A stretch of 64,000 nt of DNA from Azolla caroliniana. Its lineage: Eukaryota; Plantae; Polypodiophyta. The stretch is taken from NCBI GenBank assembly GCA_043228905.1, contig JBHGNT010000002.1:3348001-3412000 (forward strand). Direction: 5' to 3'. The notes under the pieces were generated by a model. The model made no database searches, was not told the origin of the DNA, and saw nothing but the letters and a program-made list of their open reading frames with translations. Positions 952 to 38,430 of this stretch are shown here, one piece after another; the stretch's first letter is position 1; each line of letters starts with the position of its first letter. Made by a program: the position numbers and the translations under genes.

Positions 952-982
952 AAGTGGTATCAGAGCGACGGTAACACAGAAA

Positions 983-5056: not shown

Positions 5057-5066
5057 AGGGGGAGTT

Positions 5067-6690: not shown

Positions 6691-8447
6691 TCACTCCGGT
6701 ATGGGATGTCTTGTAAGTCCGATCTGCTTTCGGCATGCGTCCAACTTGTCAGGAGTCAGCACCTTGGTTAGCATATCCGACCCGTTCTCCTCCATGTCGA
6801 TCTTTGTCAGCACGAACTCTCGATCTTCAATTCGCTCCTGCATCCAGTGGTATCTGCGTTGGATGTGCTTCGTTCTGGAATGGTATGCCACGTTCTTTTC
6901 AAGGTGGATGGTTTGACTATCGCAGTAGAGCCGATATTCCTCTTGCCGGATCCCTCGCTCTCCGATGAAGTCCTTCATCCATAATATTTCCTTGCCGGCT
7001 TCCACGGTGTCGCGAAGATGCGTGTGCGAGCGTGCTTCGCTTGAGCGGGACCACCGGGGTCTTGGACCAAGGAGGATGTCCGTCAAGGTATTGAGAAGAA
7101 GACGATGTGAATGTAAGATTGGAGGAAGATCTAATAGACTTGAGAAGATTGAAGATTGTACACTTGAGAAGTAGATAAATAATTACAAGATCGATGCGAA
7201 GAAGAAGAAATAGAAGCTTATATTATTGATGGTGATGATGATGGTCATATCATATTGAGCCCCCCCCTTTACACAAGCCGTACTAGGGGTTTTATAGGTT
7301 TGTCCATGCACAAAACCATGGGCTTGGAGCCATGGTTTCTATGCACACAGTTTTGCTTTGTGACATGCAGGAAACCATGGGCTTAAAACCGTGGTTTTGT
7401 GTACACGGTTTTGTTCGTTTGTTTCCTACGGAATACTGAATATGAGAAAGAAATATAGAACATCTAAAGCACTTAGTAGTAGCTTTAGTGGTAAGGTAAT
7501 TGCCTCTTATCTTAGAGGTGCAAGGTTCAAATCCTACTTGCAACCCTCTACATGCACTCAATGCCATTGTGACCTAGGTTTATTTACTTTCATTTTTACA
7601 AGTATTCGTGAAATGTGTGTGGATCCTCAATTTTTGACTTTTTCTCGCACTAGACATGCCACATCACGACAACAGCTACCATGTACTCCGCCTCCGTTGT
7701 TGACAACGCAACCGTCTTCTGCAGCCTCGATTGCCACGAAACGGCTCCCCTGGCATAGGTCATGACATATCCGGAAGTTGACCGGCCGGTGTCCACATCA
7801 GCCGACATATCCGAATCGGTAAATCCTTCCATGAGGGGTTTACCAAAGCCGAATCAGAGGCACATACTTGAAGTGCCCTTCAAGTACCGGAGAGGCATAT
7901 GGAATCTTCATCATATTCGCATTCTCTGCCTTTGTCTTCGGGCTTTGCTTACCTGATAATCTGCAGTTTGTCGGGAGTGTCGATGCGATCAGTTTTACTT
8001 TTGACATGTTAAACCGTTGAAGCACCTTTGTCACGTACTTTTCCTGTGACAGCCATAATTGCTTCTTCGACCGGTTCCGGATGATGTGTATCCCCAGTAT
8101 CTGTCTTGTCGGACCCAAGTCTTTCATTGAGAAGGTTCGGTTAAGGGCCTTCTTCAGCATCTGTATCTTGACTTGGTCTTGTCCGACGATTAACATGTCG
8201 TCCATGTACAGGAGCAATATCAAGAAATCTCCTCCCTCAAATTTCTTCACAAACACGCAGTGATCGGCCTGCGTCTTGGGGTACCCTTGATCAGTCATGA
8301 AGGATTCAAACTTCTAGTACCATTGCCGGGGAGCTTGCTTCAGTCCATACAAGCTCTTCTTCGGCCGGCACACCAAGTGGTCCTCCCCTTTCTTCTCGAA
8401 TCCTTCCGGTTGATGCATGTAGATCTCTTCTTTGAGGTCTCCGTGTA
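6691..8447 (-). pseudogene. pol: RT/RNase H part of the decayed Tork pol, interrupted by the 7008-7671 insertion
   Basis: ORF fragments LYMDDMLIVG, TEAEY and HSRTKHIQRRYHW match the 983-5056 protein. Confidence 0.9.
7008..7671 (-). mobile_element. Solo-LTR-like insertion of the tRNA-Trp Gypsy family, containing inverted repeats and a tRNA-like box
   Basis: Termini TGTCGCG... and ...CACGACA match the 21129 and 19286 LTRs. 4-bp TSD ACGG (7004-7007) / ACAG (7672-7675) splits the RNase H EAEYMxAV|EAGKE motif. Confidence 0.8.
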
Positions 8448-8452
8448 GGAAT

Positions 8453-8538
8453 TGTGAAAGATTATGTGCGGAAGCAATAGAAAAACGAACACAGAGAAAA
8501 TACGCAGGTTTAATGGAGAGCTTGAGTATACACAATAC

Positions 8539-8576
<38 letters not shown>

Positions 8577-14156: not shown

Positions 14157-14161
14157 GGAAT

Positions 14162-16921: not shown

Positions 16922-17743
16922 TTTCTATGTTGTTCGCTCTAATACCAATTTGAAGAGAAATGCGTGGAATATCGCTCGGCCACAACCGAGTAGTAAAACA
17001 CTTGTATAAGAATCAAACACATAAAAAAAGGGAGTGGAGAGTACACAAAAAAAAAGGACACAAGATGTTTACGTGGAAAACCCTAATAGGGAAAAACCAC
17101 GGGAGCCCACAGACTCCGAACTATCACTATGAAGAGAAAGGGGGTACAATCAGGGACTCGGAGGCAACAACCTCGAGCTCTATTTCTTCGCACAATGGCG
17201 GTTACAAATATAGCCTCAACGGGCTTATTCAAGACATATTTACAAATCTGTCTTTTCTTCCGGTTCTCATCGGGTCCACCGATCCGGTTTCCGGATCTCT
17301 TTCGGTTCTCTTTATTTATCACCGGATCCCATCCGGATAGACTGATTTTCCCAACACATAGAATCATATTCTATGACACATAACTAATGAGTTTCATATT
17401 CCCCATGACTAATGAGTCTCCACATTCACCAAGAGCTAGTGGTTATTGTAGTAAGTTACAGTAAGGTCACCCTCCTCCTACATCATACAGTGTCGGTTGT
17501 CCTCCCTTGTAATGTTACATTGTGTAATTGATATTCTCCTTATTAATATACAATCTTTTTCTTGAATACTTCATTTTTTCTCTCTTATCTATCTTGTGTT
17601 TTCTCTTCTCTCCTCTCTTTCCTCTCACGCATGCGCATAACACACATCACTCCACTGCACAGAATCATACCCGATTCTTTACCATCTCAGTCGGACAACT
17701 TGATGAAGACAGTATTCGTGCCGGCCTCTCTTCAGGAGGGTGA

Positions 17744-18010
17744 TGTCATGATATGGCAAGACTCGAACCCATGACCTTATGTTATATGGGTCGAGCTCTT
17801 GACCATTATACTATCTATTGTAATACGTAGGATATTATTTTCATTTAAGTTTTATTATAGGAAATTAATGTATATTCCAGATTTCTATGGAACATTCTAG
17901 AAGCTTCAAGAATCCTCCCGAGAACACTATAAAAGGAGGCACATGGCATTATGTTGAACCAAATTGGTTCAAACTGTCAGGAATAGTACTAAAACAGAGA
18001 GAGAATTAGT
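17744..18010 (+). mobile_element. Rearranged chromovirus LTR fragment: U3 on + (17744-17972) fused to an inverted U5 end (17975-18010)
   Basis: Matches the 49883 LTR from TGTCATGATATGGC to TTGGTTCAA, then switches to the reverse complement of that LTR's end (TGTCAGGAATAGTACTAAA). PPT-like GGAGGGTGA lies upstream. Confidence 0.85.
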
Positions 18011-18298
18011 CAGGATCTTTCAGGAATGGCTTGCCATGGTGGAGAACTAATCCGGCTGCAAGCTAAAATGCCTACAATCTCATAATGGAGGAGAGTATAA
18101 GTCAGAGGAATTCGTCAAGATCGAATACCGACTTTGGGACCCCGAGAACTGACAAATCATCCGAAGTTCGTACATTGTGTTCAATGAGTCGATTATGCAT
18201 AAGACAACCGAAAGGCCAATTGAAGTCCAAAGGGTAACTTTCTTGGAAGTGTTGGCCCTTCATGATGCCCCAACCCATAACACGAGGTGGCTTCACGG

Positions 18299-19285
18299 TG
18301 TCGTGAAGATTTCCGGCTTTGGTGTGAAACCGGGATGGAATGGGCAAGTCGGCAATGTGCAACATGTGCACATGTATAGTAGGAAAATGGTGTATAGAAT
18401 AAGGGGGAGAATTTATCCCACATTGTAATGTTCGTCCCTCCTTGGGCTATAAAAGGAAGTGAAGGGTCTCTTTTGAAGGGGTGGCCTATATTTTGAGTGA
18501 GAGAGGTATATCACTTAGGTCGAGGGTCTCTATTTCGATTTTAGGGTTTCGTCTAGGGTTTTACTATTCTTCTTCATCATCATCTTCTTTGCTTTACTTA
18601 TCCGGTTAGGGTTCCATATAGTGTTTTCGTTCAGCCTATGCGGCCATGGTTGTAAAGCGTTTGGTGTTTCTTAATATAACTCGTTTTTGTATCTTGCCTT
18701 CGGAGATCCATTCTATGTTTATGTCCTATTCTTTCTCCTCCCCTCTCAAGCTAAGCTTCCATTCCCCCTCTACTCCCTAGTCTAAGACCCCTGCAGCCCC
18801 GCCTAAGATCTTACACATACTTGTGGAATACCGCGACATCTTTGGTGAACCCGACGTGAAGAGGCAGCAAGGGAGGACGGAGATAGAAGATGAAGACTTC
18901 AACTTCGCGGAGATGATGGCAAAGATTATGATGGAGGCCAGACGGAAGAAGGCGAGGCGAGATGCGGCTCAACAAGCCATCAAGACGGTGGTCGATCGAG
19001 TCGGCCGGTTCAACGAGGACGATGTTCGGAGATTCTTAGAAGCGTACAATGTTCGAGAAGCTCACAATTCGTGGGAGTCCTTTGAGGGAGCTCTATTGGA
19101 GGCGTACGGGTACGCGAAACCGGAGTGGGTATGCCGGCAACACGATGAGAAGCAGTCGGCCCCAACACCGCTCGGAAGCGGCGGAGAAGAGAGGGTGGTG
19201 AGTGACTACGCACTACCACTAGAGGAGAGCTCAACGCGTGATGGATCGGAGGAGTACGACCTAGAGGCGTTGGTATGGGAGGCGT
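18299..19285 (+). mobile_element. tRNA-Trp Gypsy-type element, 5' part: LTR 18299-18838, PBS 18843-18860, deleted gag
   Basis: TGTCGTG...CGCGACA termini. PBS TGGTGAACCCGACGTGAA is the complement of the plant tRNA-Trp 3' end. The ORF contains VVDRVGRFNEDDV and SWESFE, homologous to the 32204-32719 gag. Confidence 0.85.
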
Positions 19286-20326
19286 TGTCGCGTTGTTACG
19301 CGCGTGCGTGTAGAAGGGGCGGGACCATGGGGGTCTCGGACTAGGGAGTAGAGGAGAAAGAATAAGATATGTTTTGGAAGCGTAGCTCAAGAGGAGAAGA
19401 AGAAAGAATAAGATCATGACATAGAAGGAGAGATCGGCCAAGACAAGATACTCAACAAGATATATTAAAACAACGAATGGTTACAACAATGGTGGCCGCA
19501 TGGGCCACACCAAACCACTATGAGAAAACCCTAACCGAAGATGAATAAGGAAAACCCTAAACGAAACCCTAACCCTAAAACTGTAAGAACTCTAGACTAA
19601 GTGGTATACCTCTCATATGTAAAATAGGCAACCCCTTCATAAGTGACCCCTCCCTTCCTTTTATAGCCCAAGGAGGGAGGGACCTTACAATGTGGGATAA
19701 ATTTTCCCATCTTATTTCTATACACCATTCCCTAGTATATGTGTGCACATGTTGCACACCACCGACTTTCCCTTTCCACCCCGGTTTCCGCCTATGGACG
19801 AAAATCTTCACGACATCCGCCCCCACCAAACCGCACATCCACCGGTATGTGCCAAGAAGGGGAAAGAGGTGAGATTTTCGGCCATGACGGTCAACCAAGT
19901 CCTTAGCGTCTTTGTCAGCTTTGCCCGACTTCGTCTCCCACTGTGAGCAAGCCCATCCGTCCCACATGGACCACCGTAACCTCCCGGTCCGCCATATCCG
20001 TCATATGCTCTCGAACAATCGGCTCCATCCGATCCACCATACTCGACGGAGTTCGCCGAACCACTGTCTCCGCCCGATCCGCCAGACCCGATCTTCGCAC
20101 ACCTCTCTTCGGCTTCCTTCGTTTTCCACCTGCGACCTTGGGCCGAATCATCGTTCTTCCCGACTGTTTGTCGGACATTGCACCGTGTGCTCCTCGTCCA
20201 CGCTTGTCCCGCATCGGCCGCTTCCTCGACTCGGCACTATCGCGCGCCGAACTTCGTCATCGATCATCCTCATGCTCGTCGCTCGGCCCTTACGCGGCCA
20301 CATCGCACGTCCCGCACTCCGCTTCG
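19286..20326 (-). mobile_element. tRNA-Trp Gypsy-type 3' LTR (19286-19815), PPT and 3' internal region, truncated by a deletion
   Basis: TGTCGCGTTG...TTCACGACA termini. PPT reverse complement TCCGCCCCCA. The following sequence resembles 28369-28410. Confidence 0.8.
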
Positions 20327-21243
20327 CTCCGCTACCGTTGCGCGCCAATCCGCCTCGTTCACCATGACCACGGGGCCTATCATCCTCCGTGTAAAGCATC
20401 TTGCCATCGGCGTGCGCACTCATCGACGCACCCGCGTGGTTTTCTTCTACGAGCAACATCGACTAAAGCTTGAAAAATGAAGCCGTAATCTCCCTGGTGC
20501 AGAATGTCGTTCGGAAAGGTCCGAACTTTGACACCAAGACACCAAGTCAAACCTACACCATTTCATCTTCCTCGACGTTCACGTTGACGGAGGCGAGAGA
20601 GTCGTAGATTTCTTTGATCTTGGTGGTGTAATCAACCACCGACATATCTCTTTGTCATACATTGTTGAGCTCCTGTTTGAGCTGCAGCTTTCTAGCCATT
20701 GTGCTTGCGGCGAAAATCCTTTTGAGATTCGTCCACGCGTCCTTCGGCGTCTTGGCATTTTGAATATAGCTCAAAAGTTGATCGCTCACACAGGACGCGA
20801 AGCAGTACAACACTTTGCTTGCCGCTTGTTCCCAAGCCGGATAGTCCCTGTGTGTCGAGTTGGGTGCCACATCGTTTGCTCCTTCAACATAACTCCAGTA
20901 GCCATGGCCGAGCAAGTACTCGTGCATCTTGTAAGACCAAGATGCGTAGTTGCTTCAATCAAGCTTTTCAGTCGGAAGTGAGCTTCCCATTCCTCTGTCC
21001 ATATTGTCGTCTTTTTCATTTTCGAACAACTTCAACTCTGTTTTGTCGCAAGCTTTTCGTGTCGGCTGTAGAGGACTTCAACCCTCGCGCTCTGATACGA
21101 TGTAAATGAATACGTTGTGCAGAAGCGTTGTCGCGTTGTTACGCGCGTGCGCGGAGAAGGGTGGGACCACAGGGGTCTCGGACTAGGGAGAAAAGGGGGG
21201 CGCCGAGAAACCGACTCCGGACGCGCTCTAGAGGCAACCGAAC

Positions 21244-21295
<52 letters not shown>

Positions 21296-21297
<2 letters not shown>

Positions 21298-22085
21298 TTG
21301 GGAGACAGGTCCCTCCTGATGGGAAGGGAGAAGAACAGTGCCGATGAACAGACTCGGCCGAGGCAGATGCAGACCCGGCTATGAACCGGATGAGGTGGAC
21401 CCGGCTACGGAGAGCCGGATGATGCAGACCCGGTATGAACTGGATGGTGCAGGCCCGGTACGAACCGGATGAGGAGTACCCGGCTACGGAGAGCCGGATG
21501 ATGCAGACCCGGTATGAAACGGATGAGGAGTACCCGGCTACGGAGAGCCGGATGATGCAGACCCGGTATGAACCGGATGAGGAGTACCCGGCTACGGAGA
21601 GCCGGATGGTGCAGACCCGGTATGAACCGGAGGAAGAGACATATTCGTAAATATGTTTCTGAGAGCCCATCGTGGCTACATTTGTAAATAGCCGAAAAGT
21701 CATATTAGTATAAATATGACTTAGGGCAAACTAATATTAGGTGGTTAATTTTCTTGTTGGTGCAAGAAGAAGAGAGAGTGCGCAACTGTACAGAGAGAGA
21801 GAGAGAGACGAGGTCGTTGCCTCTGTTGTAACCGCCACCTGTGGCGAAGATCGTGAGCACGAGGTCGTTGCCTCCGTGAACTCACTGTTTTGTACATTCT
21901 TACATAGTGACAGTTTGCAGCCCATGGGCTGCTGTGGTTTTTTCCCCTAGTTTGGGGTTTTCCACGTAAACCTCCTGTGTATTTGTCTTCCTCTTTGTGT
22001 CGTGTTCTATTTCCCGTTTTCTGTGTATGAAAAGAATCTCGGTTGTGGCCGAGCGTTGCGCATAAGGAACGTTGGGTTCCCATCA
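21296..22085 (+). mobile_element. Solo LTR of a Tork-like Copia inserted in an (AG)n tract
   Basis: TGTTGGGA...CCCATCA termini, similar to the 268-951 LTR. TSD AGAGA. Contains a 54-bp tandem array at ~21400-21630. Confidence 0.88.
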
Positions 22086-22242
22086 AGAGAGACAAAGGAG
22101 AGGGAGAGTGTGCGTGCGACACCAACTCTTATGCACCGGAAGCAAGGGGTTGTGCTTCCGACACCACCAAATACACTGATATGCACAGACAGACGCAAAT
22201 ATGTATATTACAAGGGAAAGAATACATCCCCGGCTTAGAGCC

Positions 22243-25200
22243 CATCGGCCGGATCGGATGAAGAAGCCGAGGACCGGATCGGTTGGGACCGATCGGTTAG
22301 GCCGAATGCGTAAACCGGTACGCAGACCGGTGCGTAGGTAGGGCCGGATCGGTGCATAAACCGGGAGGCCGTTAGGAAAGATATTCCGTGAGGAATATAT
22401 TTGGGAGTTAGTGTAGGAGCTCTTAATGAGCATTGAAGTACTATCAGTACTTCGGTCAGTCCTTCGAGGACTTGTACAAAGTGTTCATTGAACACATATA
22501 TGTGTTGTTGTTTTTTTTCTTGAATTTACCTTCTTGTGTTTTCTCTCCGTCTCTCCCGCATATACTGTGTAGGCTCAAGCTCTCCATTAAACCTGAGTTT
22601 CCTTCCTTCTGTTCGGTCTTCATACTTGCTTCCACACGCTACTTTTTACATGGTATCAGAGCGCGAGGGTTGAGAACCTCTCTGCAGCCGATACAGCTTG
22701 ACGAAGAAGAACAAGAAGAACGATGGATAGAGGCATGGCGAGCTCGCTTCCAACAGAGAAGCTCGACAAAACCAACTACGCGTCTTGGTCCTACAAGATG
22801 CACCAGTACCTGTTCGGGCACGGCTACTGGAGTTATGTCGAAGGAGCTAATGACGCGGCACCCGAATCGACACACAGAGACTTCCCGTCGTGGGAGCAAT
22901 CGGCGAGCAGGGTATTATACTGCTTCGCGTCGTGTGTGGGCGAACAGCTATTGAGCTATGTTCGGGATGCAAAGACGCTGAAGGGTGCGTGGGAAAATCT
23001 GAAGAAGATTTTCGCCGCGAGCACCACAGCCAAGAAGCTTCAGCTCCGACAGGAGTTGAGCAACCTACGACAACACGACTTGTCGGTGGCGGACTATACC
23101 TCGAAAATCAAGGATATCTGCGACTCCCTCACCTCCATAGAGGTGAACATCGAGGAGAGTGAGATGGTCCAAATCTGTCTTGGAGGTTTGGCGTCGAAGT
23201 TCGGAGCGGTCCGAACAGCTGTGTGTACCCGGGAGAATGAGCCGTCCTTTTTCGACTTACCGTCACTGCTCTTGGTAGAGGAGAACCACGCGGGTGCGTC
23301 TACAAGCACGCACACCGAAAGCAGAATGTTGTACACGGAGGGAGATAGGCCCCGTGGTCGTGGAGGACGAGGCGAGTCAGCGCGCAATGGAGGCGGCCGA
23401 CGAGATCCAGGAAGAAGGCACCGAAGTGAGGCCAACAGCAACTCCGGACCCTCCCAAAACAGGGGGAGTCGAAGCGATGAGAACCGGCAAGGGAAGGCCA
23501 TCGCGGAGTGCTGGTACTGTGGCAAGAAAGGCCACAGGGAAAGTGAGTGCTGGAAGAAGTGCGCCGATTCGGAGAGAACCGGTTCCGGAAACAACTCCGG
23601 ACATACCGACAAGGGAAATCGGCAGCGATCGCACTACGCCGAAGACTCCGGGAGAGCCGGAGAAGGGTTTGCCTTCGTGACGAGACACGAAGCAAACTCA
23701 ATGAAACAGAGCACCCCGAGATCGAACGAGGTGTGGTACGTAGACTCCGGCGCGTCAAACCACATGACGAGCCATAAGGAGTGGTTCTCGTACCTTGAAA
23801 AACCGATACAACCTGGAGTAGTCGCAACTGGAGACGACACTCTGCATCCGATCGCGAATGTCAGAGAAGTTCCCCTTAGCCATGTCGGGCAGAAAGGGAA
23901 ACTCATGAACGTGTTGCACGTTCCGACAGTCACGAAAAACTTGGTCTCGGTCGGACAGATCGTCGACCAAGGGATGGAGGTTCGGTTTACACACCTCGGG
24001 TGTTTCATTGAGGAAGAAGGCCATGTGATTGCGCAAGGGCGCAGAGACGGGAGGATGTTCATCCTCGACTCCACTAACGACGACCACGCAATGTTCACGA
24101 AGGGACGAAAATCCGAGTCGGACATCGACTTGTGGCACAAGCGGATAGGCCACGTCAACTACCAGCGGCTTCAAGATCTGCAATCGAAAGAGGTAGTGTT
24201 CGGATTGCCCAAATTTAGTGGCCGAAAGGCACAAATTTGTGAAGCCTGCCAGCTCGGGAAGCAACACCAACTTCCTTTCCCCAACGAGCGAAACCGGAGC
24301 CGGAACAAGCTCGACCTTATAAACTCCGATGTATGGGGGCCAGCACAAAATGTTAGTCTTGGCGGGAGCCGATATTTCGTCTCCTTCATCGACGACCACA
24401 CGCGGCACACGTGGATCTACCTCATTGAGAGGAAGAGCGAAGTCTTCGACTGCTTTCAGGACCTCAAAGGGTTCGTGGAAACGGAAATGGGACGAAAGAT
24501 CAAGTGCCTGCGGTCGGATGGTGGGAAAGAGTACTTCTCCGGTCAATTCAACGGTTATCTACAACAAATGGGAATTCGGCGCGAATTCAGTTGTAGATAC
24601 ACGCCGGAGCAGAACGGCGTGGCCGAGAGGAAGAATCGGTCAGTTGTGGAAGCGGCATGGGCAATGCTGGAGGAGAAGAGCTTGCCCAAGTTCTACTAGG
24701 CCGAGGCGGTAAGGACTGCGGTATACATCCAGAACCGGATCGGAGACAAAGTGTCGGCGCACGAGCTATATTTCGGAACGAAGCCGAACTTGCGACACTT
24801 GAGGGTGTTCGGTAGCATTGCGTATGTGCATGTACCAAAGGAGAAAAGGAGGAAGTTGGACGCAAAGGCCGAGAAATGCATCTTGGTCGGTTACTCGGAC
24901 GAGCAAAAGGGTTATAAGTGCTATAACCCTCGCACCAAACAAGCGCGTGTTAGCCGCGACGTTGTGTTTCACGAGTCCGCGTCCTGGTACCAGCCCCCAA
25001 CTCCAATCCGAGTTCTGACGATGAGGTCAGCGAGGCCGGGATGCCTCCGGATGAGCCCGAAATCGAGACCTGCCAAGAGAGTCTGATTTCACTCCGCTTA
25101 AGTGGACCGATTGCACGACTGAGTCGGTACGATCAGTCCGATGAAGAGCCGGCGACTAGTGGAGACTCGGTCGTGCGTTCCCCGCGCAGGAAGCCGAGGA

Positions 25201-27942
25201 GACGGCTTACGCGCAAAGAGAAAGGGAAGAAGAAGGTGTCGGATTCCGGCACGAATAGGAACGAGTCAGACCGACGCGAATTTGACTCCGAGGGAACCGG
25301 TGACGGGTCTTTAAAAGTGAAGTTTGCGTCAACCGAGAAGGCCTCAACATCGGCTAATGTGAGATTACACCGATCTACCCGCCAGAAGAATCCTGTTTTG
25401 CGGTTCGGATACAACGAGTACATGGTGCATCATTATGCGTACATGCCGCGTGTAGCGGAAGTGCGTGAGCCAGAGAGCTACGCAGAAGCGGCTAAAGACG
25501 CGACTTGGCGTGCCGCGATGGAGGAAGAGATGCACGCATTGGCGGAGAACGAGACCTGGGACCTGGTTGACGCACCGAAGGGTGTGAAGCCAATCGGGTG
25601 TAGGTGGGTGTACAAGGTCAAGTACAACACCGATGGCTCGGTCAACCGGTACAAGGCTCGGCTAGTGGCAAAGGGCTACGCGCAAAAACACGGCATCGAC
25701 TACGATGAGACGTTTGCACCGGTCACGAAAATGACGACCGTCCGTGTTTTGCTCGCAGTAGCTGCGGTGAAGGGGTGGCACTTACATCAGATGGATGTAA
25801 AGAATGCATTCCTACAAGGTGACCTTGAGGAACATGTGTACATGGTACAACCCCCCGGATTTCACTCAGGAACGAACTCCTTGGCAGTATGCCGACTGAA
25901 GAAGTCCCTTTACGGACTGAAGCAAGCCCCGCGTGCCTGGAACGTGAAGATCACGCAACAACTGCGTCGGATGGGCTTCATCACGTCAAAATCGAACTCT
26001 TCCCTGTTCATCCGGAAAGGTCGACTCGGACCGGTTAGTATTTTACTATATGTTGATGACTTGGTCATCACCTACGCCGACTTATGTGAAATCGACCGCG
26101 TGAAGCTCCAGCTTGCGGCATCGTTCGACATGAAGGATCTGGGGGACCTTCATTACTTCCTCGGGATCGAAGTGATCCGTACCCTCGAAGGCATATTGAT
26201 CAGCCAACGTCATTACGTGCTGAGTATGCTCTTCAAACTCGGGATGGCCGACTGTAAGTTCGTCTCGACTCCTTTGGACAGAACCGTCAAGCTTCGTCCC
26301 GATACGGGAAAGGTATGCGACCTGACGAGGTTCCGAAAAATTGTCGGAAACCTCATATACTTGACCATCACCCGACCCGACCTCAGTTATCCAGTCGGAG
26401 TGATCAGACAGTTCATGGCGCAACCTACCGAGGAGCACCTTCAATGTGCGCAACGCATACTTCGATATGTCAACGGCACTAAGGACCGGGGACTGCTATA
26501 TCGGACCGGTGCAGCCGCGCAGTTAGTCGGCTACACCGACGCTGATTGGGTTGGCAACGCCGCCGATCGCCAATCCACGTCCGGATACGCATTCTCCCTC
26601 GGGAGTGCCGCGATCGCGTGGAGTAGTAAGAAGCAGCCGACAGTTGCACTGTCGAGCACCGAAGCTGAATACCGAGGAGCGGCTGTCGCGACATGTGAAG
26701 CCATATGGTTGAAGCGGCTACTTAAGGACCTGCAAGAGGAGGTGTCAGATCCGACGACGATCTACTGCGACAACCTCAGCAGCATCCAGCTCACGAAAAA
26801 CCCTGTTTTCCACGCACGGACCAAGCACATTGAGGTGCACTACCATTTCGTCCGTGAGCGTGTCCTTTCCGGTGAAGTCAAACTTCAGTACATTCCGACG
26901 GATCGGCAGACTGCCGACATCTTTACCAAGCCTCTTGGTCTGGACAAGTTGCGGCAATTCTCAGGTGCGCTCCGATTGCGTCACCTCGACGTGCCAAACT
27001 TGAGGAGGAGAACAGTCCCGAACGACTAAGCAAGGCAACAAGAAAGGAGCGGAGACCGCGACACCGAGTCGGTTGACTCGGTTGTCGAGTTCGACTTCGG
27101 ATCGGCTTAAGAAGCCGAGGGCGGACAGAAGGGGAGCAGCCGAAGGAGAGAGCCGAAGCCAACCACGCATGGGGAAGATGACGCCATCGAGGGCGAGAAG
27201 ACCGAAGACAAGTTGGAGACAGCCAACTCGGACGAGAGCGACAACCGATCGGAGGTAGCCGAGTCGGTTCGGATGTTTGATTCAGATACGTTGAATCAAC
27301 CGAGGCCCAAGTGGAAGAAAAGGCAGCAGGAGAAGCGTCAACACCGCAACAGCAGAAGAGCTGATAAGGGCCACATGAGCAGACAAGCCGACCGGAAGGG
27401 TCGAAGCGCGCGGAGTCGAACAGGTCGAGGAGCGCGAGCGAGGCGTGAAGCCAGGAGGAACCGGAGCTGTGAGCCCAAAGATCCCGAAGAGCCTCAAGTT
27501 AGGCTTGAGGGGGAGTGTTGAGAGACAAGCTCAACATCAACCGGATCGGATGAAGAAGCCAAGGACCAGATCTGTTGGGACCGATCAGTTAGGCCGAATG
27601 CGTAAACCGGTATGCAAACCGGTGCGTAGGTAGGGCCAAATCGGTGCGTAAACCGGATGGTCGTTAGGAAAGATATTCCATGAGGAATATATTTGGGAGT
27701 TAGTGTAGGAGCTCTTAATGAGCATTGAAGTACTATCAGTACTTCGGTTAGTCCTTCGAGGACTTGTACAAAGTGTTCATTGAACACATATATGTGTTGT
27801 TGTTTTTTTTCTTGAATATACCTTCTTGTGTTTTCTCTCCGTCTCTCCTGTGTATATTGTGTAAGCTCAAGCTCTCCATTAAACCTGAGTTTCCTTCCTT
27901 CTGTTCGGTCTTCATACTTGCTTCCGCACGCTACTTTTTACA
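22243..27942 (+). mobile_element. Bryco-like Copia element, near complete; the left tip of the 5' LTR and the left TSD are deleted
   Basis: LTRs ~22243-22650 and 27516-27942. PBS TGGTATCAGAGC at 22651-22662. PPT GAGGGGGAG before 27516. The host LTR resumes at GGTAG (27943). Confidence 0.95.
22723..27521 (+). pseudogene. gag-pol: gag-pol with a premature TAG (24697-24699), a frameshift near 25000 and an in-frame ~163-codon tail
   Basis: The 658-aa ORF has CWYCGKKGHRESEC, YVDSGAS and SDGGKEY. The 662-aa ORF has YVDD, TEAEY and ADIFTK. The 27213 ORF is in the same frame as the 662-aa ORF. Confidence 0.93.
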
Positions 27943-30092
27943 GGTAGGTTACGCTACAACAACAGTATGCCGCCAAGCCGCCGTCGAGGAGCTCTCGGGC
28001 TTGTCACGCCGAGTGGGGTCTTGCACAGGAGGCCGAGCGGAAGCAAACCCTAAGCAAACACGAAGGGGAAGAAGAAGAAGAAGAAGAAGAAGAAGAAGAA
28101 GATAAGATAAACAGAATACTAAACCTAACGTTATACCCTCCTAACTCAAAAATGGGCAACCCCTTCACAAAGGGGCACTGCCTTCCTTTTAAAGACCAAG
28201 GAGAGGGATGCATTACCATGTGGGATAAATCCCAACTAACATGGGATTCTCTGTCCCGACTTGACTCCTACTATTCACACGTTTTTACAAGGGTGAGTAC
28301 ACATGATGCACTCCGTCGATTCTCCCGATATTCTCTAATTCCGCCTAGGGACGGTTTTCTCCACGACACCCGCCCCCACCTAACCGCGCATCCACCGGTA
28401 TGTGCCAAAATAGACTCTTTGCCGGAGAAGACCAGCCCGCGCTTACCCTTCGTCCTCCGAATCACCGAATGCACGCTCCTGCTATCCGTCGTAGGTCCGA
28501 GGTCCTCCGGTTGAGGAGCGCCCGTAACGGCCCGCTTTGCCTTAGTCCGTTGCTGCATTGTCTTGGTCGTCGTCTTTGCCGCCACTACCGTCTGTCACTC
28601 TCGGTCTCACACGGGCTCTCGGGCCGGATGTCGGAGTCTCCAGAGTCGTTTCGTGCGAAATCCCGTCACCACCGCTTCCCTTTCGCCTGTGGGTGTCCTC
28701 TACATCCGAGGAATACCCGTAGTAGCCAGCTTGGCCCTCTTCCATCTTGCGCCATTGTCGTCGAGTTGAAGCCTTTCCCTTGTCGTCGTCCCCTCACCCC
28801 CACCAGCTTGTCATCTCGGGCTTGGTTTGCTACGCCAGTTGCTGCCACTCCGACTAAGCCGCCGAGATCTCCGAAGCGGGCGTGGAGGATCCTTCTCCGG
28901 CCTGTATATCTTCCCGGTTTCAGACCCGTGCAGTTCATCGCGCACCCCTTTCCGCGTTCCCGGCATCACCGCGTACGTGTCGTCCTTTAGTCGTGCTCCG
29001 ATTTGGCCCTTGATGGCCACTTGCACGATTCTTCTTCAACTCTGGGTGTGCCCTTCCCGGCTTGGCACTCCGCCCGTACTTGCCCTTATTGGCTTCCTCG
29101 GAAACCGTAACCGGCCGGTAGGGGGTTTGCAGTTAGACAACTTCCGTCTTGCCGACTATTGTCGATGCTAGGTCTCGTTCCTTGCCGCCACCATCCTTCT
29201 CTCTCGGTCTTACGTTGCCACGTTGGCCGAACAGCCGAAGTCTCCGGATCGGTGTGAAGATCCCATAGGACTGGTCGTCGTTTCGTTGCTTGCCGAAATT
29301 TGGGTGTCTTTTGTTTGAGTCCCTCCCGGACTCTCCTCATGTCTCCCGCGTAGTCGGGTCCTGTTTCCCGCCGCCACCATCCTTCTCTCACGGTCTCACG
29401 TTGCCACGCTGGCCGAACTGCCGGAGTCTCCGGTCTAGTGTGGGGATCCCATAGGATCGGACTTCCTTATGCCCATGACCTTGTCGGTAGGTCCGATTCG
29501 GTCCATAGCCGCCTCGCCGGCCTGATACCTTCATGCCACTCTGCCCCATCGTCCGATCACGTTCGCCTGCCGTCACCGTCCCTTCTTATAGGACTCACGC
29601 CGGCACTCGGGCCGACCGCCGGATCGGTGCGAGGATCTTCGTGGGACCTCCTCTTCTGGCTTCGGTTGCCCGCCTTGCCGCCACCACCATTCCTTACTCT
29701 AGGTCTCATGTCTCCTCTTGTTTCCGGCTGCCGGAGTCTCTAGAACCGGTGTGTGTAAGGTCGCAGCAGCACCGCTCCGCCTTCGCCGCCCTCTTTTGTT
29801 GGTCGCGTTCACCTGCTGCCACCGATCTCTCCTATAAGACTCACGTCGGCACTCGGGCCGACCGCCGGATCGGTGTGAGGATCTCCGTAGACCACCCATC
29901 CGTAGCCCTTTGCCATCATCCCCTCGTTGCCACCGTTCATCACTCTAGGCCAACCGCCGGAGTCTGTAGAACCGGTGTGAAGGATCCTCCTCGAGCTTGT
30001 TGTATCTCTGACCCTTATCCCGGGCCTTCCTTCTTTCGCAAGTCAAGAGGGTGGCTCGCTCCACACCCTCTCCCGTGGTACCGACGTACCGT

Positions 30093-30723
30093 TGTCGAGG
30101 TTTTCCTCGCGGATACCGTGGAATGAGGCGGGACCTCAGGGGTCCTGTACCGAAGAGCAAGAGAGAAGGGACAAGAGACCCACTACGTGCGAGCGTAGAT
30201 TCACAGGGACACGGCCCTTCGACACAAAGACGCGAGTGGGACAGCGACACAGAGAGACACGAATGTATGTATGTATTAACAAAGACAACAACAAGAACAC
30301 GAAAGCAACAAAAACACGAAGTCGGTTACAACCGAACAGGCCGGCGAACAGATGCCGATGCCTGTTCGTAAACGCACAGAAAGACAGGAGCAGGTTGGAG
30401 GTGCTGCCAGAAGCACTCGGGCATTCCTCAAAGCAGCGCGAGCCTCCCGAAACCTGCACAGAAGGAAGCTATGGAGTTTGCGAACCAGAGAGAGAGAGAG
30501 AAGCCTTCGCACGCAAACCAACAGCACTTCGTCCTCGACTCTCCGCGATCCCCTCCCCCTTCTCGTCTCCCTCCTTTTTATAGGCAAGGAAGGAGCCGTT
30601 TCCCCTTTACTTCCTACCCACTAAATCTACCTGCCTAGGATCTTCTATGGACAACATTCGAGAAGAGCCGGCTCCTACGCTCCTGTGCACCGATTCCTCT
30701 TGTGGACGGTTTTCTTCACGACA
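30093..30723 (-). mobile_element. Solo LTR of the tRNA-Trp Gypsy group
   Basis: TGTCGAG...TTCACGACA termini with a perfect 4-bp TSD CCGT at 30089-30092 and 30724-30727. Confidence 0.88.
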
Positions 30724-31982
30724 CCGTGCTCCCAGCCTCTTCATAGGCCTGCTCTCTTCCTCCCTCCTAAAATGGTTATCCAAAAGTCCGCTCCACCCGG
30801 TTCTCGTCCGGGTCCGTTCGTCATTCTCTGGATTTCCGGGTCCCGTTCTCCTGTCGCCACCGTCCCTTCCTATAGGACTCACGCGGGCACTCGGGCCGAC
30901 AGCCAAATCGGTTGTAAGGAACTCCATAGGACCGGCCTTCATTCTCCACTTCATCCCTTGGACTTCTCCCGGACTCATCGTCACTCTCCTCGTTGTGCTC
31001 CCACCTCCATCTTCCATCTCTTTCGGTCTCACGTTGCCATGTCGGGCGAACTGTCGAAGTCTCCGGACAAGATGTGGGGTAACCGATTTCGCAACGTCTT
31101 TCGGCGACTCCTCCAGGCCACCGACCCTTTAGTGGTGTCGGTGGAAAGCATCCGCTCTGTGATCAACCAAGCCCCGCCTGGGCTTGATTCTCCAATGTCC
31201 GGAGTTTCGGCTCCGATGCCGATCCAACCGGACTCGTTCTGAACCCTTGATCTTCTTCTTCCCGATTCCCGACCTTCGCTCGGTCAGTCTTTCTCCCCAT
31301 GTAAAAGAGGGTGGCTCATTCCGCACCCTCTTCCATATCAGCACCTTCATGCCGATTCTGGCCCCCGTCGAATAATCCATGACCGGATCGCGCCTCACCC
31401 GAATCGGAGTGTCGCGCAGGTCGGTCCCCGGTCGGATCGTTTCATGGTCTCTTCGTCGACCTTCTCGTGAGCCATTTCCCATCCAACTTCGCTGGCATCG
31501 TGTCAGGACTCCTCGATACCGTCATCCATCTCCTCGGTCTCACATGGGCGTAAGGGCCCGAATGTCGAGTTCTCCGGAATCGGTTCCGTGGGCTCTTGTC
31601 CGCTCCTTCCCCGTATCGTCTCGCCGGTGATTCTCAGTTTCTCACCGCCTCCTTCCTCCTCTTAGGACTCACGTGGGCACTCGGGCCCGACTACCATCGT
31701 CTCGAGAGCAAGTGTGGGAAGATGCGTAGAATCGTCCGTCCTATTTACACCCTTATCCGCAACCACCGGCTCCTCGTGGTCGGTGGTCATCTTCTTACCA
31801 ATCGCGCAAGCCCCTCCTAGGCTTGCTTCTCCAATGTCCGGAGTTTCGGGCTGACATGCCCGAAACCGCCGATCCCAACATTCCGATTCTGCGATCGGTG
31901 TCTCGGCCTCGTCCTCGGCCGTTCTATCTCCGCAAATCGAGAGGGCGTTTTGTTTCGCACCCTCTCCCCTGGTACCGTGGTA

Positions 31983-32719
31983 CTAACCTTTTGCCATCTC
32001 GTGGGGCAAGCTCGTCTCCTCGGTCTCAGCTCGCGGCCTTGATCTTTCCTCTTCCTCGAGCATTGCCTTGAGAGCTGCGTACGCCTCCGCAATCCTGGCC
32101 CCGACGCCGACCCTTGCGGACTCTCTTTGCCGTTCGGCCTCTTCCCGTTGTGATGGCACGCCATCACGCGCCTTCCTCTTAGCCTTCTCGGCTCGCTTGT
32201 CATCTAGTTGTTGGCATACCCTTTCGACCTTCGACCAGTCCTCCGTAAGGCCATTTGCTCCCGTTCTACTCGGTCGATCGACCTGACGAACAACAGGACT
32301 TTGTCCGACCCCACCAAACCTTGTTCCCGCTCTGGGAGCCGAGCAAGCCGCCACTCGAACTCTCGGAATGCCTTCATTGCACCCCGGTGGGTCTTCGCCG
32401 ATGCAACCCACTGGTCGAAGTCGCATCGTCCCTGGCTCTTCCGACGTCCTCCATATGCCTGCAGGAGCGCCTCTTCGAAGGTCTCCCATGAACTATAAGT
32501 TTCTCGGAGCTCCTTCACTTCTGCGTGCATACGGACGACGACGACCCAACAGAAGAACTCCAGCCTCAACTCCTCATCTATGTCCCCGTTGAAACGGCCG
32601 ACTCTTTCGACCACTCGCTCAACCGCTTGTTGCGTCGTCTCTCGTCTTGCCGTTGCTCGTCCAAACTCCCTCACCGCTTCGACAAAAAGTTCCGCGAAGT
32701 CGTCTTCTTCCAGCTCCAT
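31983..32719 (-). pseudogene. gag: Gag-like ORF of the TR-GAG-like element, followed by a coiled-coil-like continuation in another frame
   Basis: Starts just after the PBS. VERVGRFNG, SWETFEE and DKVLLFVRSID are homologous to the 18823 and 34685 ORFs. Confidence 0.7.
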
Positions 32720-35175
32720 CCTCCCTTGCCGCCCTTCACGTCAGGTTCACCAAATATGCCGCGTTGTTACGTGCGTGCGTAGAGAAGGGCGGGACCATAG
32801 GGGTCTCGGACTAGGGAGAAAAGGGGGGTGCCGAGAAACCGACTCCGGATGCGCCCAGGAGGCAACCGAACGAGAGAGAGAGAGAGAGACAAAGGAGAGG
32901 GAGAGCGTGCGCGCGACACCGACTCTTATGCACAAGAAGCAAGGGGTTGTGCTTCCGACACCACCAAATACACCGATATGCACAAACAGACGCAAATATG
33001 TATATTACAAGGGAAAGAATACATCCCCGGCTTTGAGCCGAACCAAGGTAGGTTACGTTACAACAGTAGTTTGCCGCCAAGCCGCCGTCCGGGAGCTCTC
33101 GAGCTCGTCGTGCCAAGCGGGGTCTTGCACAGGAGGCCGAGCATAAGCAAACCCTAAGCAAACACAAAGGGGAAGAAGAAGAAGAAGAAGAAAAGATAAA
33201 CGGAATACTAAACCTAACAGTATACCCTCCTAACTCAAAAATGGGCAACCCCTTCACAAAGGGGCGCTCCCTTCCATATATAGACCAAGGAGAGGGATGC
33301 GTTACAATGTGGGATAAATCCCAACTTACATGGGATTCTCTGTCCCGACTTGACTCCTACTATTCACACGTTTTTACAAGGGTGACTACACATGATGCAC
33401 TCCGTCGATTCTCCCGATATTCTCTGATTCCGCCTAAGGACGGTTTTCTCCACGACAGCATGTGCGTAAACACAGAGTACACAGTTCGGAGGAATAAGAC
33501 AGTTCAGTAAGACACATAAAACGCAGAGATGGAGATGGAGATGGAGAGACAAAGAGAGAGCAGACACAGAAAAACTCAGATTCAAAATAATAACTCTCTA
33601 TTCTGTACATACTTCATGCTCATTGAGCACCTTTATACAAGCCCTGACTATCGGGCTGACACAAGTACTGACAGTACTTGACGCTCATAAATGAGCCGCT
33701 ACACTCACTCCCAAAATTATTCCTTTCGAGAAATATCTTTCTAACGGCCTTGCGGTTTATGCACCGCTACGGCTTACATTATGCGTACTGTTTTACGCAC
33801 CCAGTCTACGCACTGGGTCACGCACAGTGTTACGCACCCAACGTTGAGCTTGTCGCTCAACATTTCGTGCACTCCCCCGTTCGCACGTGGTCGGTGAGCT
33901 TTTCTCCTTTTGTCAAAATCCTCTATGACACCGCGTGATCCGTCTCCTCCCTCTTCAGCTTCTTCCCAAAGAAGAATTCCAACATCATCAACCAAAATTC
34001 GGTGTTGCTTCCAAAGCCAATGTTCTTATCCCCTTTGACCCGAGACCGGTCGACGCCCAGTAATGGATGGCCTCGATGTGCCATGTCGCCGCTTCCTCCA
34101 TTATCCTTTTCATTCAGCCTCGACCGATCTTCATCTCAAGGGGGCTCTGCGTCTCACTAGCATGAACCTGACCATTCAAGAGATATACCACATTGTTCTT
34201 CATGGCCTCAGCAAAGTCGGCACAGTCCGTTCAGATGTGGTCACCACTGTCGCACCACATGCATCGAAGGGTATGAGGCGGTCTCCAGTCACAAGAGGGA
34301 CCCCTGCCATCTCTCTAAGCCTGAGCAATCTAGAGGTCACACACCATCTTCGTGAGCTCCTCGAGTGTCGTGCCTCCAAACGGTCTATCGACCTCGTTAG
34401 TCGGTACAGACTCCAAGTCGACCCGTCTTCTTGTCTCTTCTGACCGAGTCAACACCTCCACTACTACTCCTCTCGTGGTTGGTTCGGTCGATGCAGACCC
34501 TTCGTTGCTCCATTCTCGTCATTTATCAAACGGCTACATACTCTCTTAACCACTGCCTAGTCGGTCATCACGCCTTCGATGTCTCCAGGAGGAGACCAAC
34601 CTTCTCTCGGTCACGCGAGTCAACCGACTTGATAAATAGAAGGACCTTGCTCGTGTCGAGCACAGTCCGGTCTAGTGTTGATAGTCACGTGAATCGCTTC
34701 TTGAACTCTTGGAGAAGCGTCGGCGTGTTCCTTCCTTTCCCCGGGAGCTCGACCCACTCCATGAGCTCCTTCTTCGACAACCAGAGCGATTCATTGAAGG
34801 CGTACCTTTCGAGGAGTCGCTCCTCGAACTCCGACCAATTACGGCAGTCATCTTGTATCTCGTGCACCTCGGCGTGGATGCTCAACATGACAACTTGAGC
34901 AAATCCTGACAATCGTCTGTGGTCCGGAATGTCTCTCATCAGCATTTCAGTCTTGAAGGCCTCCATTTAACTTGTGACGTCTCACCCATTGAATCGGCTG
35001 GTCGTGCCGATGACGGTTTCAATGGCCTTGTCGAGGCCTATTGATCTATCTCTTGCGCTCATGAAGCGGTCCATGGCCGCCGCCATCACCTCTGCCAGCT
35101 CACCACCTTTCATAGTAACTCCCCTACCACCCTTTTCACGTCGGGTTCACCAAAAGATGTCGTAGAAATCCGTAG

Positions 35176-36509
35176 TGTCATCAGGATTTTGGCTACGGTG
35201 AGAAACCCGAATGGGACGAATAAAACGAGGATGTGCAACATTGCACATGCACTTAGAAAATTTGTAAATAAGAACAAGAAAAGTAAAATGTAAGGTGTTA
35301 AAAGTGCACTACAAAGTTCGTGCAGTACAAATGTAATGCGTACTTAGGTGCACATACACATGTAGACTAAGGGGAGTGCAGGGTGTAAGGGTGTAATTAA
35401 CAATCGGCAACGGTTCGGTTCGGTTCGATTTGAGAGGTTCCAAACTCGGAGGAGTGCAAGGTGTAAGGGTGTAATTAACAATCGACAACGGTCCGGTTCG
35501 GTTCAATTTGAGAGATTCCAAACCAAACGGGTTTGAAACCGAACCATGAAACCTGTAAATTGAACCATTAAACATTTTTCAAACCGTTAAACCATTAAAC
35601 CATAAAAACCATGATTTCGTGGTTCGGTTTCGGTTTTCAACTTAGGTCAAATCTTAATTTTTAAAATTTGTAATATTTCATTATTTTAAAATTTTAAAAT
35701 TTTAAAGATGTTCCTAAAATGTGAGAATAAGGTCTAAAAATGAAAAGATTGTTTAAAAACAATTTTAAAAATAATAATAAACCACTAAACTGTTTAAACC
35801 GCGGTTTTTTACTGTTGAAACTGAACCGAACCGTTGAAACCGTTAAGCCGCGGTTTCGCGGTTCGGCTCAGTTCAAACCGAACCGTTGCCAATTGTTAGG
35901 TGTAATAAGTAAGTATAGGACATGGTGGTGTGTGTGAGAAAATGAGAGGAGAGGGAGTTAAGGCCCATCAATCTCTCCTCCTAAAATCAAGGCAAATATT
36001 CTTCTTCAATAAGAGAGGAATATTTGGCCTCTCTTTTTGTAATAAGCCTCACCTTTTTCCATTATAAAAGGGAGTGAGGAGGCATCATTGAGGGGTCGCC
36101 ATTTTGTCATTTTGAGGTAGATTGTTAGGGATTTTCTTCTTCTTCATCTTATCTCGATTTCATTTTAGGGTTTTGGTTTGAGGTCCCCCTTCCTATCATT
36201 TTCCTTTCTCTTGATTAGGGTTTAGTTCTTCTTTCTATCCAGTTAGGTTTTCTTCTAGTTGTGCTTGAGTCCAGCGTATATGGCCGCGGTTGTAAATCAT
36301 ATTGCGGCTTTTGTGCCCTATAATGGAATTAGCTTGATGAACCTTGTCTCAGTCTAGCTCTTTAACTTGTTAATATTCGCACATTGTTCTTGACCCTTTG
36401 TGCTCGGAAGCTCATAAGGGTTAAGCTCCCATTCCCCCTCTTTTACTCCCTAGTCCAAGTTCCCCATGGTGTTGCCCAATCCGACACACACGCGTGGATT
36501 TCCGCGAGA
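35176..36509 (+). mobile_element. Solo LTR related to the 18299-18838 LTR, containing a MITE
   Basis: Colinear motifs with the 18299 LTR (TATAAAAGG, TTAGGGTTT, CATTCCCCCTC, CCGCGAGA end). Flanks are GTAG / GCGG. Confidence 0.7.
35398..35898. mobile_element. hAT-type MITE
   Basis: TIRs TAACAATCGGCAACGGTTCGGTT / AACCGAACCGTTGCCAATTGTTA. 8-bp TSD GGTGTAAT at 35390-35397 and 35899-35906. Subterminal AACCG/CGGTT repeats. Confidence 0.88.
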
Positions 36510-38063
36510 GCGGCTTGCGGGTCGGCTCGAGCAGGACTACTGGGGTCTAGGACCAGGGAGCTTAATGACCGATAGGTAGTTTGACAACCGGCGCCAACTG
36601 GGTGGTCACTAAGGTCGAACTGGCCCTATATCCGGCTTCCGCGAAAAGAGCACACGGGCTCGTAAGGGTACCGTGTACACTAGCAAGCACGAGATGAAAG
36701 GAAAAAAAAGGGGAACGAGCAAGACACACACCACACCACACACACACCCTACACCCGGATTCGGAAGGTAAAGAGTCGATTAATAGCAGGTAAAGAAAAA
36801 CAAGAAACGGAGCGACCAAGACCAAGGGCCACAAGGTAGGTGCACCCAGATACAACAATAACAATTAATTTATTAATTACAAACAAAACGAGTACAGAAG
36901 TGTCCTTAGGCAAGGTAGCAAAGCATAAGCTCCACAGACACACGGTTGTGAGCCTCTGGTCGGGAGCACACAGGCTCTCTACGGCGAGCGAAGGCCTCAC
37001 ACGGCTCTAAAAGACTCCAAACAAAACGGCACAAACCAAACCCAAATAAACAAGATCTCGAATCCTTTCCCCTAATTCGACTTTGCAAATTCTGAAAGCA
37101 CCCCCTCCTCCTAAAACCCTCCTCCCTCCATAATAGTCATCCTTCCCCTCCTTTTATAGCCCCAAGGAGGGTCGGTTACATAAGGCTATTATGACAGTCA
37201 TTTCGGTCAAAGATTTTCCCATGATTTTCTACCATCACATCCTATAATTCCTCCCTCTTTTCGGGGGCCCAAAGTACTTAGTAATTGTATGCTCTTTATT
37301 TACATTTATTTTTATACAATTACCATTTCTTGTGCATATGTGCGCACCCCTATTCCCACACATCTGACAAATTTTTCTTGTTGTGGCCAAAATCTTTCAC
37401 GACACCGGATGTTGAAGCCATCTTAATATGTGTCGGTTGGGAGATTTTGTCCGAAGTTGGCTACGAACGATCAGGGGTGTAGTCAATCAGCTCACTTGAA
37501 TTTATTCTAGCCGAATCATACATAAACTTGCCAATTTCGAATTAAGCACGAATAGCATTGATCGTAGTGCTAATCCCCGATTAAGTATAATTAGTGATGA
37601 TCTCAATGTCAATCCTACTCCGAATGACTACGACGAATAGAGGGATCTTCCCAATTTTCATCTTGTCAGATGAAGCACAGATGAGGCCAATCATAGTGCC
37701 AATCATTGTTTAAACATTGATGATGCCAATCTTGATGCCAATCCTTCTCCGAATGGCTACAATGAGTGAATGGACATTGTCGACTCGCCTGTGCAAATGT
37801 CGCTTACCCGGATAGAGCATAGATGTGGCTAATCAAATTAGGTTCCACTTCGAGTGGTTGCAACCATGAAAGAGAAGTACAGTCAGCTGGCTTACTTAAA
37901 GAGTGGTCTAACTCAGTGGAGTGTGAACCGGCAAGGCATCTTTTGATCGACAGAAATCTTGAATCTATTCCAACAAATCTGATCAATTTGAAGTCTTTAG
38001 GGAGTGTGTAACAAGAGTGTTGGTGAAGGCAAATGACGGTCAACAACAGAATGAAGAACCTTT

Positions 38064-38430
38064 GCTCTGATACCAGATGTTGGAAACTGAGACCGTTCGT
38101 GCGGAATATAAGAACAACACTATGTAATGAAGGACAGAAAGTTGATGACAAAAGTAAATGAGATGAACGAATTGATTAAACATCTTAAGGCAACTTAGCA
38201 GAGATCAACATCAAATCAGAAAATAAGTGAGATAGTAAGACACAAAGCCACGAACTATAATTGTATTATCCAAACTTAGAGTTACAAAAGAATGGCAGCA
38301 ACGATGAGCTAGGTTACAAGTTCAATTATACTATGGCAATTTCCCTTTAGTCTAATTACATAAATGTCCTAAACCTAGTCTATCTAAGTGGGACGATGTG
38401 AATACGGCCATTATGAACCCATATTCAACA
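38064..38430 (-). mobile_element. 5' LTR (38078-38430) and tRNA-iMet PBS of a further truncated LTR element
   Basis: GCTCTGATACCA at 38064-38075, TGTTG...CAACA termini. Gypsy pol sequence resumes at 38431. Confidence 0.7.

What the first reader, a model, noticed from the sequence alone, without database searches (positions are those of the whole stretch)
7004..37408. tRNA-Trp Gypsy family integrates at CpG-centred 4-bp targets
Seen: every junction of this family has a 4-mer with a central CG on at least one side. Paired TSDs are ACGG/ACAG (7004, 7672), GCGT/GCAT (21125, 33458), CCGT/CCGT (30089, 30724) and GTAG/GCGG (35172, 36510). Single flanks are ACGG (18295), GCGT (19282) and CCGG (37405). 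The mismatches are all C>T or G>A within the CG, as expected from methyl-C decay. All Copia and chromovirus TSDs here are 5 bp and lack CG. Inference: the integrase prefers NCGN, possibly methylated, which would steer insertions into other CpG-rich retroelements. Caveat: the host sequences are themselves CpG-rich.
Basis: partly seen in the sequence, partly recalled or inferred. Interest (0 to 1): 0.75.

Follow-up and report, generated by a model that had tools for sequence, protein, structure and literature searches.

The report
Phygy-type retrotransposons insert at CG
These plant jumping genes almost always land on a CG base pair; they likely belong to the Phygy lineage, for which this habit is already published, and an indirect test gave no sign that the CG must be methylated.

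Summary
All 11 cited 4-mers are in place. Of 3,812 LTR 5' junctions in G000, 3,231 (85%) have NCGN and 461 more have CA, TG or TA. Background CG is 4-6%; a chromovirus control gives 5 of 100. All 43 true paired ends carry CG on at least one side, and none fits 5 bp. The motif sharpens to VCGB (93%).

It is not new. Neumann et al. 2019 list Phygy with a 4-bp NCGN TSD (100% of 186 elements) and a Trp PBS. These elements meet every structural criterion I could test; tree membership could not be tested without Phygy reference sequences.

Insertions fall in CG-rich repeats about as often as random VCGB sites do (87% vs 86%). The motif alone therefore explains nesting. TSD decay shows methylation after insertion, not before. 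I found no earlier scan note on this.

The parts
7004..7007 (+). Left TSD ACGG, inside a Copia RT region
   Evidence: Homologous empty Copia sites: 13 ACGG, 84 ACAG, 3 other among the first 100 of 214 (counted by eye)
7008..7671 (-). Solo LTR, type A (664 bp)
   Evidence: Genome copies carry the Trp PBS, the PPT and NCGN flanks
7672..7675 (+). Right TSD ACAG (likely decayed)
18295..18298 (+). 5' flank ACGG
18299..18838 (+). 5' LTR, type B; element truncated at about 19285
18843..18860 (+). tRNA-Trp PBS
   Evidence: Trp assignment rests on recalled tRNA-Trp 3' end and on agreement with the Phygy table
19282..19285 (+). Flank GCGT
19286..19830 (-). 3' LTR (19286-19815) and PPT of a truncated element
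21125..21128 (+). Left TSD GCGT, inside a Copia LTR
21129..33457 (-). Element C. 3' LTR in three pieces (21129-21278, 22086-22242, 27942-28368) split by two Copia insertions; PPT from 28369; decayed gag 32193-32716; Trp PBS 32735-32752; 5' LTR 32757-33457; no pol match
30089..30092 (+). Left TSD CCGT
   Evidence: Empty host copies hold a single CCGT: 99 of the first 100 of 263
30093..30723 (-). Solo LTR, type D (631 bp); full-length relatives are about 7.0 kb, gag-PR then RT-RH-INT
30724..30727 (+). Right TSD CCGT
33458..33461 (+). Right TSD GCAT of element C (likely decayed)
34042..35152 (-). Decayed gag of element F (34042-35113) and Trp PBS (35135-35152)
   Evidence: tblastn 49-60% identity to the L002 gag
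35158..37404 (-). 5' LTR of element F, interrupted 14 bp inside its U5 end by LTR E
35172..36513 (+). Solo LTR E (35176-36509, both ends mutated) with flanks GTAG and GCGG
   Evidence: weakest of the pairs
37405..37408 (+). Flank CCGG of element F

Best explanation
These are non-chromovirus Ty3/Gypsy retrotransposons with a tRNA-Trp primer site, likely of the Phygy lineage, that sit in 4-bp duplications centred on CG, and their integrase likely picks the site by DNA sequence alone. Shown: TSD length 4, centre CG, T avoided at position 1 and A at position 4 (VCGB), G rare just outside. Inferred by analogy with the foamy-virus intasome: a 4-bp stagger needs a sharp bend that unstacks the central pyrimidine-purine step, and a further base contact narrows YR to CG. 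Candidates for that contact (untested) are the Glu three residues after the second catalytic Asp and the conserved first loop of the SH3-like C-terminal domain. Because CG is concentrated in repeats in this genome, the motif alone would send most copies into other retroelements. After insertion the two TSD copies are likely methylated with the element and decay independently to TG or CA.
For: 3,231 of 3,812 junctions NCGN, 3,692 YR, 3,006 VCGB against 4.1% NCGN and 46.5% VCGB among NCGN in a 200-kb genome sample. Still 11 of 13 CG in CG-poor flanks. Chromovirus control 5 of 100 by eye and 1 of 21 by script. Pairs: 34 of 43 identical, 0 of 43 fit 5 bp, 43 of 43 CG on at least one side (L189 dropped because its left side is a PBS remnant). 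Empty sites hold one copy of the 4-mer. At 7004 the CG allele is the minority among host copies, 13 of 100. Structure: no chromodomain or archaeal RNase H by Pfam; RT 55-74% identical to Riccia and Adiantum proteins against about 25% to the window's chromoviruses. Published Phygy profile matches. 4-bp-TSD retroviruses favour central YR and avoid T at 0 and A at +3 (PMC4422553). Flank CG density 0.058 against 0.062 for random VCGB sites, p=0.12; repeats 60 of 69 against 129 of 150. DRGE in 68 of 72 homologues that my pattern matched, of 120 scanned.
Against: No Phygy reference sequence could be read, so membership is by features, not by tree. Type D elements are 6.6-7.6 kb (16 of 17; one 5.1 kb), below the published 7.7-10.0 kb range. 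The methylation test is indirect and small (69 flanks, some found inside repeat nests; repeat status judged against about 1 Mb). Of 17 stretches fetched around non-CG junctions, only 3 gave a clean partner end (all CG); 2 gave unmatched ends and the rest were unresolved. The integrase model is mediocre (pLDDT 66.6, pTM 0.36) and shows no DNA contact. One host site is occupied in at least 3 copies and LTR ends are hit about 1% of the time, so CG sites may not all be equal.
Confidence: 0.8

Rival explanations
1. The integration complex prefers methylated CG and so seeks out silenced repeats.
For: 87% of flanks are repeats. TSD CGs decay, so these sites are methylated at some time. A paper title on CpG methylation affecting retroviral integration in vitro was seen in a reference list (paper not held).
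Against: Random VCGB sites are repeats just as often (86%), and non-repeat CG sites are not avoided (9 of 69 against 21 of 150). No chromodomain or methyl-binding domain was found by Pfam. The C-terminal domain is the ordinary SH3-like integrase fold (PFV integrase Z 7.0, rmsd 2.9, 62 aligned, tied with Tudor domains). One-sided decay postdates insertion.
Confidence: 0.13
2. The pattern only reflects CG-rich host sequence, or generic YR flexibility.
For: The window has CpG o/e near 1 over 1-36 kb. 4-bp integrases favour YR steps.
Against: 15- to 20-fold enrichment over background. CA+TG+TA make up 19% of background but 12% of junctions, and every resolved pair returns to CG. The chromovirus control is at background.
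Confidence: 0.02
3. The elements are a sister lineage that shares the PBS and target with Phygy (or with TatI) rather than Phygy itself.
For: Shorter than the Phygy range. No Physcomitrium-named hit among the listed rows of three protein searches. TatI also has a 4-bp TSD and Trp PBS.
Against: TatI has archaeal RNase H in 100% of cases; none was found here. NCGN is reported only for Phygy. Phygy is also annotated in a liverwort.
Confidence: 0.12

Closest known systems
Phygy, non-chromovirus Ty3/gypsy lineage (Neumann et al. 2019, PMC6317226; passages and supplementary file 3 read)
   Same: 4-bp TSD, NCGN motif, tRNA-Trp PBS, no extra polyprotein domain, no extra ORF, coding region filling the internal part.
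   Different: Described there as specific to Physcomitrella patens, 186 elements, 7.7-10.0 kb. Here at least 3,812 5' ends of several LTR types, type D about 7.0 kb, motif refined to VCGB, named relatives in Riccia and Adiantum.
TatI and Selgy (same paper)
   Same: 4-bp TSD; TatI also has a Trp PBS.
   Different: TatI carries archaeal RNase H (not found here); Selgy has an Ala PBS and about 5 kb; neither has a reported target motif.
Drosophila errantivirus-type elements with palindromic targets TATA, CGCG, ATAT (PMC5408687, passages)
   Same: Sequence-specific Gypsy integration at short palindromes, one subgroup at CGCG.
   Different: Animal lineage; fixed CGCG rather than VCGB; no close relationship was tested.
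Prototype foamy virus and other 4-bp-TSD retroviral intasomes (PMC4422553, passages and section 14)
   Same: 4-bp stagger, central YR step, T and A avoided at the edges; the C-terminal domain superposes.
   Different: Weak YR bias there, near-strict CG here. Retroviruses have a small neutral residue at the Ala188/Ser119 position; this lineage has Glu at the position I take as equivalent (numbering recalled).

Membership tests
Phygy | Ty3/gypsy order gag-PR-RT-RH-INT between LTRs | tested here: met
   L002 ORFs and Pfam
Phygy | 4-bp TSD | tested here: met
   34 of 43 pairs identical 4-mers, none fits 5 bp; empty sites
Phygy | NCGN target motif | tested here: met
   3,231 of 3,812
Phygy | tRNA-Trp PBS | tested here: met
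   Three PBS in the window, in types A and D, and in 39 of 80 metagenome relatives (only this PBS type was searched). Trp identity recalled, not from a tRNA scan
Phygy | No chromodomain, no archaeal RNase H, no extra ORF | tested here: met
   Pfam on L002 and precomputed domains of 120 homologues; median 71 aa after GPY; ORFs fill the internal region
Phygy | Clade membership in the RT-RH-INT tree (primary criterion) | not testable with these tools
   The reference FASTA was too large to read; the tree holds no Phygy reference
Phygy | Size 7.7-10.0 kb (descriptive; the paper calls size weak for classification) | tested here: not met
   Type D 6.6-7.6 kb in 16 of 17
TatI | Archaeal RNase H domain | tested here: not met
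   No such Pfam match in L002 pol or among the listed homologue domains
Selgy | tRNA-Ala PBS, about 5 kb | tested here: not met
Chromovirus (Tcn1, Galadriel) | Chromodomain at the integrase C-terminus | tested here: not met
   Absent in L002, present in the window's chromoviruses; RT identity about 25%

The most novel reading that the evidence does not exclude
Probability: 0.13. Interest if true: 0.7.

Novelty: new member of a known kind. Interest (0 to 1): 0.27.

Why it matters
In Neumann's survey, Phygy is the one plant LTR lineage with a sequence-specific target, but the paper gives it one sentence and a table row. This genome supplies thousands of junctions. They show the rule is close to strict once decay is allowed for, refine it to VCGB, and show that a two-base preference is enough to steer an element into other repeats without chromatin tethering. 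They also name two conserved integrase features to test. This is useful to transposon specialists but not surprising to them. Only a shown dependence on methylation would make it a major result.

Tried and rejected
Phygy reference proteins: Additional files 1 and 3 of PMC6317226 were too large to read and may bear on size, PBS and membership. Three protein searches and a cluster look-up named no Physcomitrium protein in the rows listed. The P. patens RLG2 transcript supplement gave no match to four short PBS or LTR-end motifs; long cells are cut there, so this is uninformative.

Methylation data: no bisulfite run was listed. Kitamura 1992 is not held.

Literature: searches found the NCGN statement only in PMC6317226 and no test of methylation dependence. 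The library lacks most subscription journals. A 2025 review (PMC12477314, passages) does not mention Phygy. GingerRoot (PMC6839031, passages) is unrelated.

Structure: the ESM Atlas gave only generic integrase clusters. The Tudor-domain matches of the C-terminal domain (Z 7.0-7.6) are tied with PFV integrase and reflect a common SH3-like fold, so I did not take them as a methyl reader. The RT tree has one very long chromovirus-like row and is no membership test.

Partner ends for most non-CG junctions were lost to nesting. The U5-end and single-site hotspots were only roughly calibrated and are not claimed.

Full report
OBSERVATION. All 11 4-mers lie at the cited coordinates next to LTR ends. 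They belong to seven insertions of at least six LTR types that share little beyond their termini. These are solo LTRs at 7008-7671, 30093-30723 and 35176-36509; truncated elements at 18299 (+) and 19286 (-); a deleted element at 21129-33457 (-); and the 5' part of an element ending at 37404 (-). Three Trp-type primer sites and two purine tracts adjoin these LTRs. Six Copia and chromovirus insertions with readable junctions have 5-bp TSDs without CG. The 35172/36510 pair is the weakest, since both LTR ends are mutated.

GENOME-WIDE TEST. The window lies in G000, 523 Mb. I searched a shared LTR-start pattern with a non-G at position -8 to exclude purine-tract junctions. It gave 3,812 sites: 3,231 with CG at the TSD centre, 3,692 with any YR and 3,006 with VCGB. 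These counts are not deduplicated, cover only subfamilies that match the pattern, and include a few leaked internal junctions. CG occupies 5.8% of positions in 69 local flanks and 4.1% in twenty 10-kb genome samples, where VCGB is 46.5% of NCGN. In the 13 CG-poor flanks, 11 are CG and 2 TG. A chromovirus family searched the same way has CG there in 5 of the first 100 of 1,043 sites (by eye).

PAIRED AND EMPTY SITES. Of 44 paired ends I dropped one (L189, a primer-site remnant). Of the remaining 43, 34 are identical 4-mers, none fits 5 bp, and all have CG on at least one side. The 9 mismatches are 5 CG>TG/CA, 3 other transitions and 1 transversion. G is rare immediately outside the TSD (9 of 88, counted with L189 included). 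The host sequence around 30089 occurs 263 times; 99 of the first 100 are empty with a single CCGT. The Copia site around 7004 reads ACAG in 84 and ACGG in 13 of the first 100 of 214 copies, so the element sits in a copy with the minority CG allele. Of 17 stretches fetched around non-CG junctions, three gave clean partners, all CG; two were unmatched and the rest unresolved.

THE ELEMENT. Full-length type D copies are 6.6-7.6 kb (16 of 17) with LTR pairs 94-99% identical. L002 carries gag-protease (with a Pfam DUF4100 match) and RT-RNase H-integrase; its pol has an in-frame stop inside the integrase. It has no chromodomain and no archaeal RNase H. The named relatives are Riccia and Adiantum proteins, 63-74% identical over the RT core, against about 25% for the window's chromoviruses. 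Of 80 unnamed metagenome contigs, 39 show the same primer site. A host junction was readable in about 13 of them: nine have NCGN (four confirmed by a second LTR copy, the rest picked by eye), three do not or are unclear, and one is uncertain.

MECHANISM. Retroviruses with 4-bp TSDs bend target DNA at a central YR step and avoid T at position 0 and A at +3 (PMC4422553). That matches V..B, so VCGB looks like the generic 4-bp signature narrowed to CG. What narrows it is not shown. The integrase has Glu three residues after the second catalytic Asp in 68 of 72 matched homologues, where retroviruses have a small neutral residue, and a conserved first loop in the C-terminal domain. The model (pLDDT 66.6) shows an SH3-like domain that superposes on PFV integrase 313-374 (Z 7.0, rmsd 2.9, 62 residues). 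These are candidates only.

METHYLATION AND NESTING. Flanks are more CG-rich than random positions (0.058 against 0.041, p=5e-6) but not more than random VCGB sites (0.062, p=0.12). They are repeats in 60 of 69 cases, against 129 of 150 random VCGB sites and 94 of 150 random positions. The 29 flanks taken in genome order give 0.060. One-sided decay shows methylation after insertion. No methylome was listed, so methyl preference is neither shown nor excluded.

WHAT IS KNOWN. Neumann et al. 2019 state that Phygy elements have an insertion preference for NCGN. Their table gives 186 elements, 4-bp TSD in 100%, Trp PBS in 81%, 7.7-10.0 kb. Jedlicka et al. confirm mostly 4-bp TSDs and report Phygy nested in Tcn1 (PMC6911290, passages). 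Phygy is also annotated in a liverwort (PMC12885004, passages). CGCG targeting is known in Drosophila (PMC5408687, passages). PMC7466625 (passages and supplement searches) did not link RLG2 or RLG3 to Phygy. All structural criteria are met except size; tree membership could not be tested. My searches found no VCGB refinement and no methylation test.

VERDICT. Real and strong, but a new member of a known kind. Interest 0.27. The methyl-reading version has probability about 0.13 and would merit 0.7. The scan's earlier notes shown for this genome (8 of 35 listed) concern other Gypsy features, mainly a lineage without a purine tract; word and sequence look-ups found nothing on this one.

Noticed in passing
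window 38429-38730 and 44901-45455 (+): Decayed RT/RNase H fragment of the same Trp-PBS lineage (59-76% identical to L002), split by the chromovirus at 38724-44887.
   Followed up: partly
window 30089; L278 (G000:C2:23.19-23.20 Mb); G000:C7:241103: The same CCGT in a host repeat is occupied in at least three copies. In L278 the host flanks are 82-89% identical to the window but the LTRs 96-97%, which points to independent insertions at one site. About 263 host copies exist, so this may be a hotspot.
   Followed up: partly
window 35158-35175; L163-L172: 35 genome-wide cases of a lineage LTR inserted just inside the CG-rich U5 end of another, against at least 3,197 such ends. A few-fold above a rough per-site estimate; not properly calibrated.
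   Followed up: partly
window 35373-35900: AT-rich insert with short inverted repeats inside LTR E, MITE-like.
   Followed up: no
L179/L180, L193/L195: Type A LTR pairs lie only about 2.9 kb apart, so these copies are about 3.6 kb and likely non-autonomous.
   Followed up: no
window 268-5748: Young Copia with a 1,416-aa open frame and LTRs 99% identical.
   Followed up: no
window 52904-54327: Perfect threefold 479-bp tandem duplication inside the RT-RNase H region of the chromovirus at 49883-56558; either a recent duplication or an assembly artefact.
   Followed up: no
window 63253-63706: Tandem array of 77-bp units, about six copies.
   Followed up: no
L143-L162 and window 44-62 kb: The genome mixes GC-rich blocks with CpG o/e near 1 and AT-rich blocks with o/e 0.3-0.6; all six lineage LTR starts in the random sample fell in the former.
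   Followed up: partly
L185/L186; L090: Identical flanks at two places 138 kb apart, and a tandem partial copy with the same flank: segmental duplicates, so junction counts are not fully independent.
   Followed up: no
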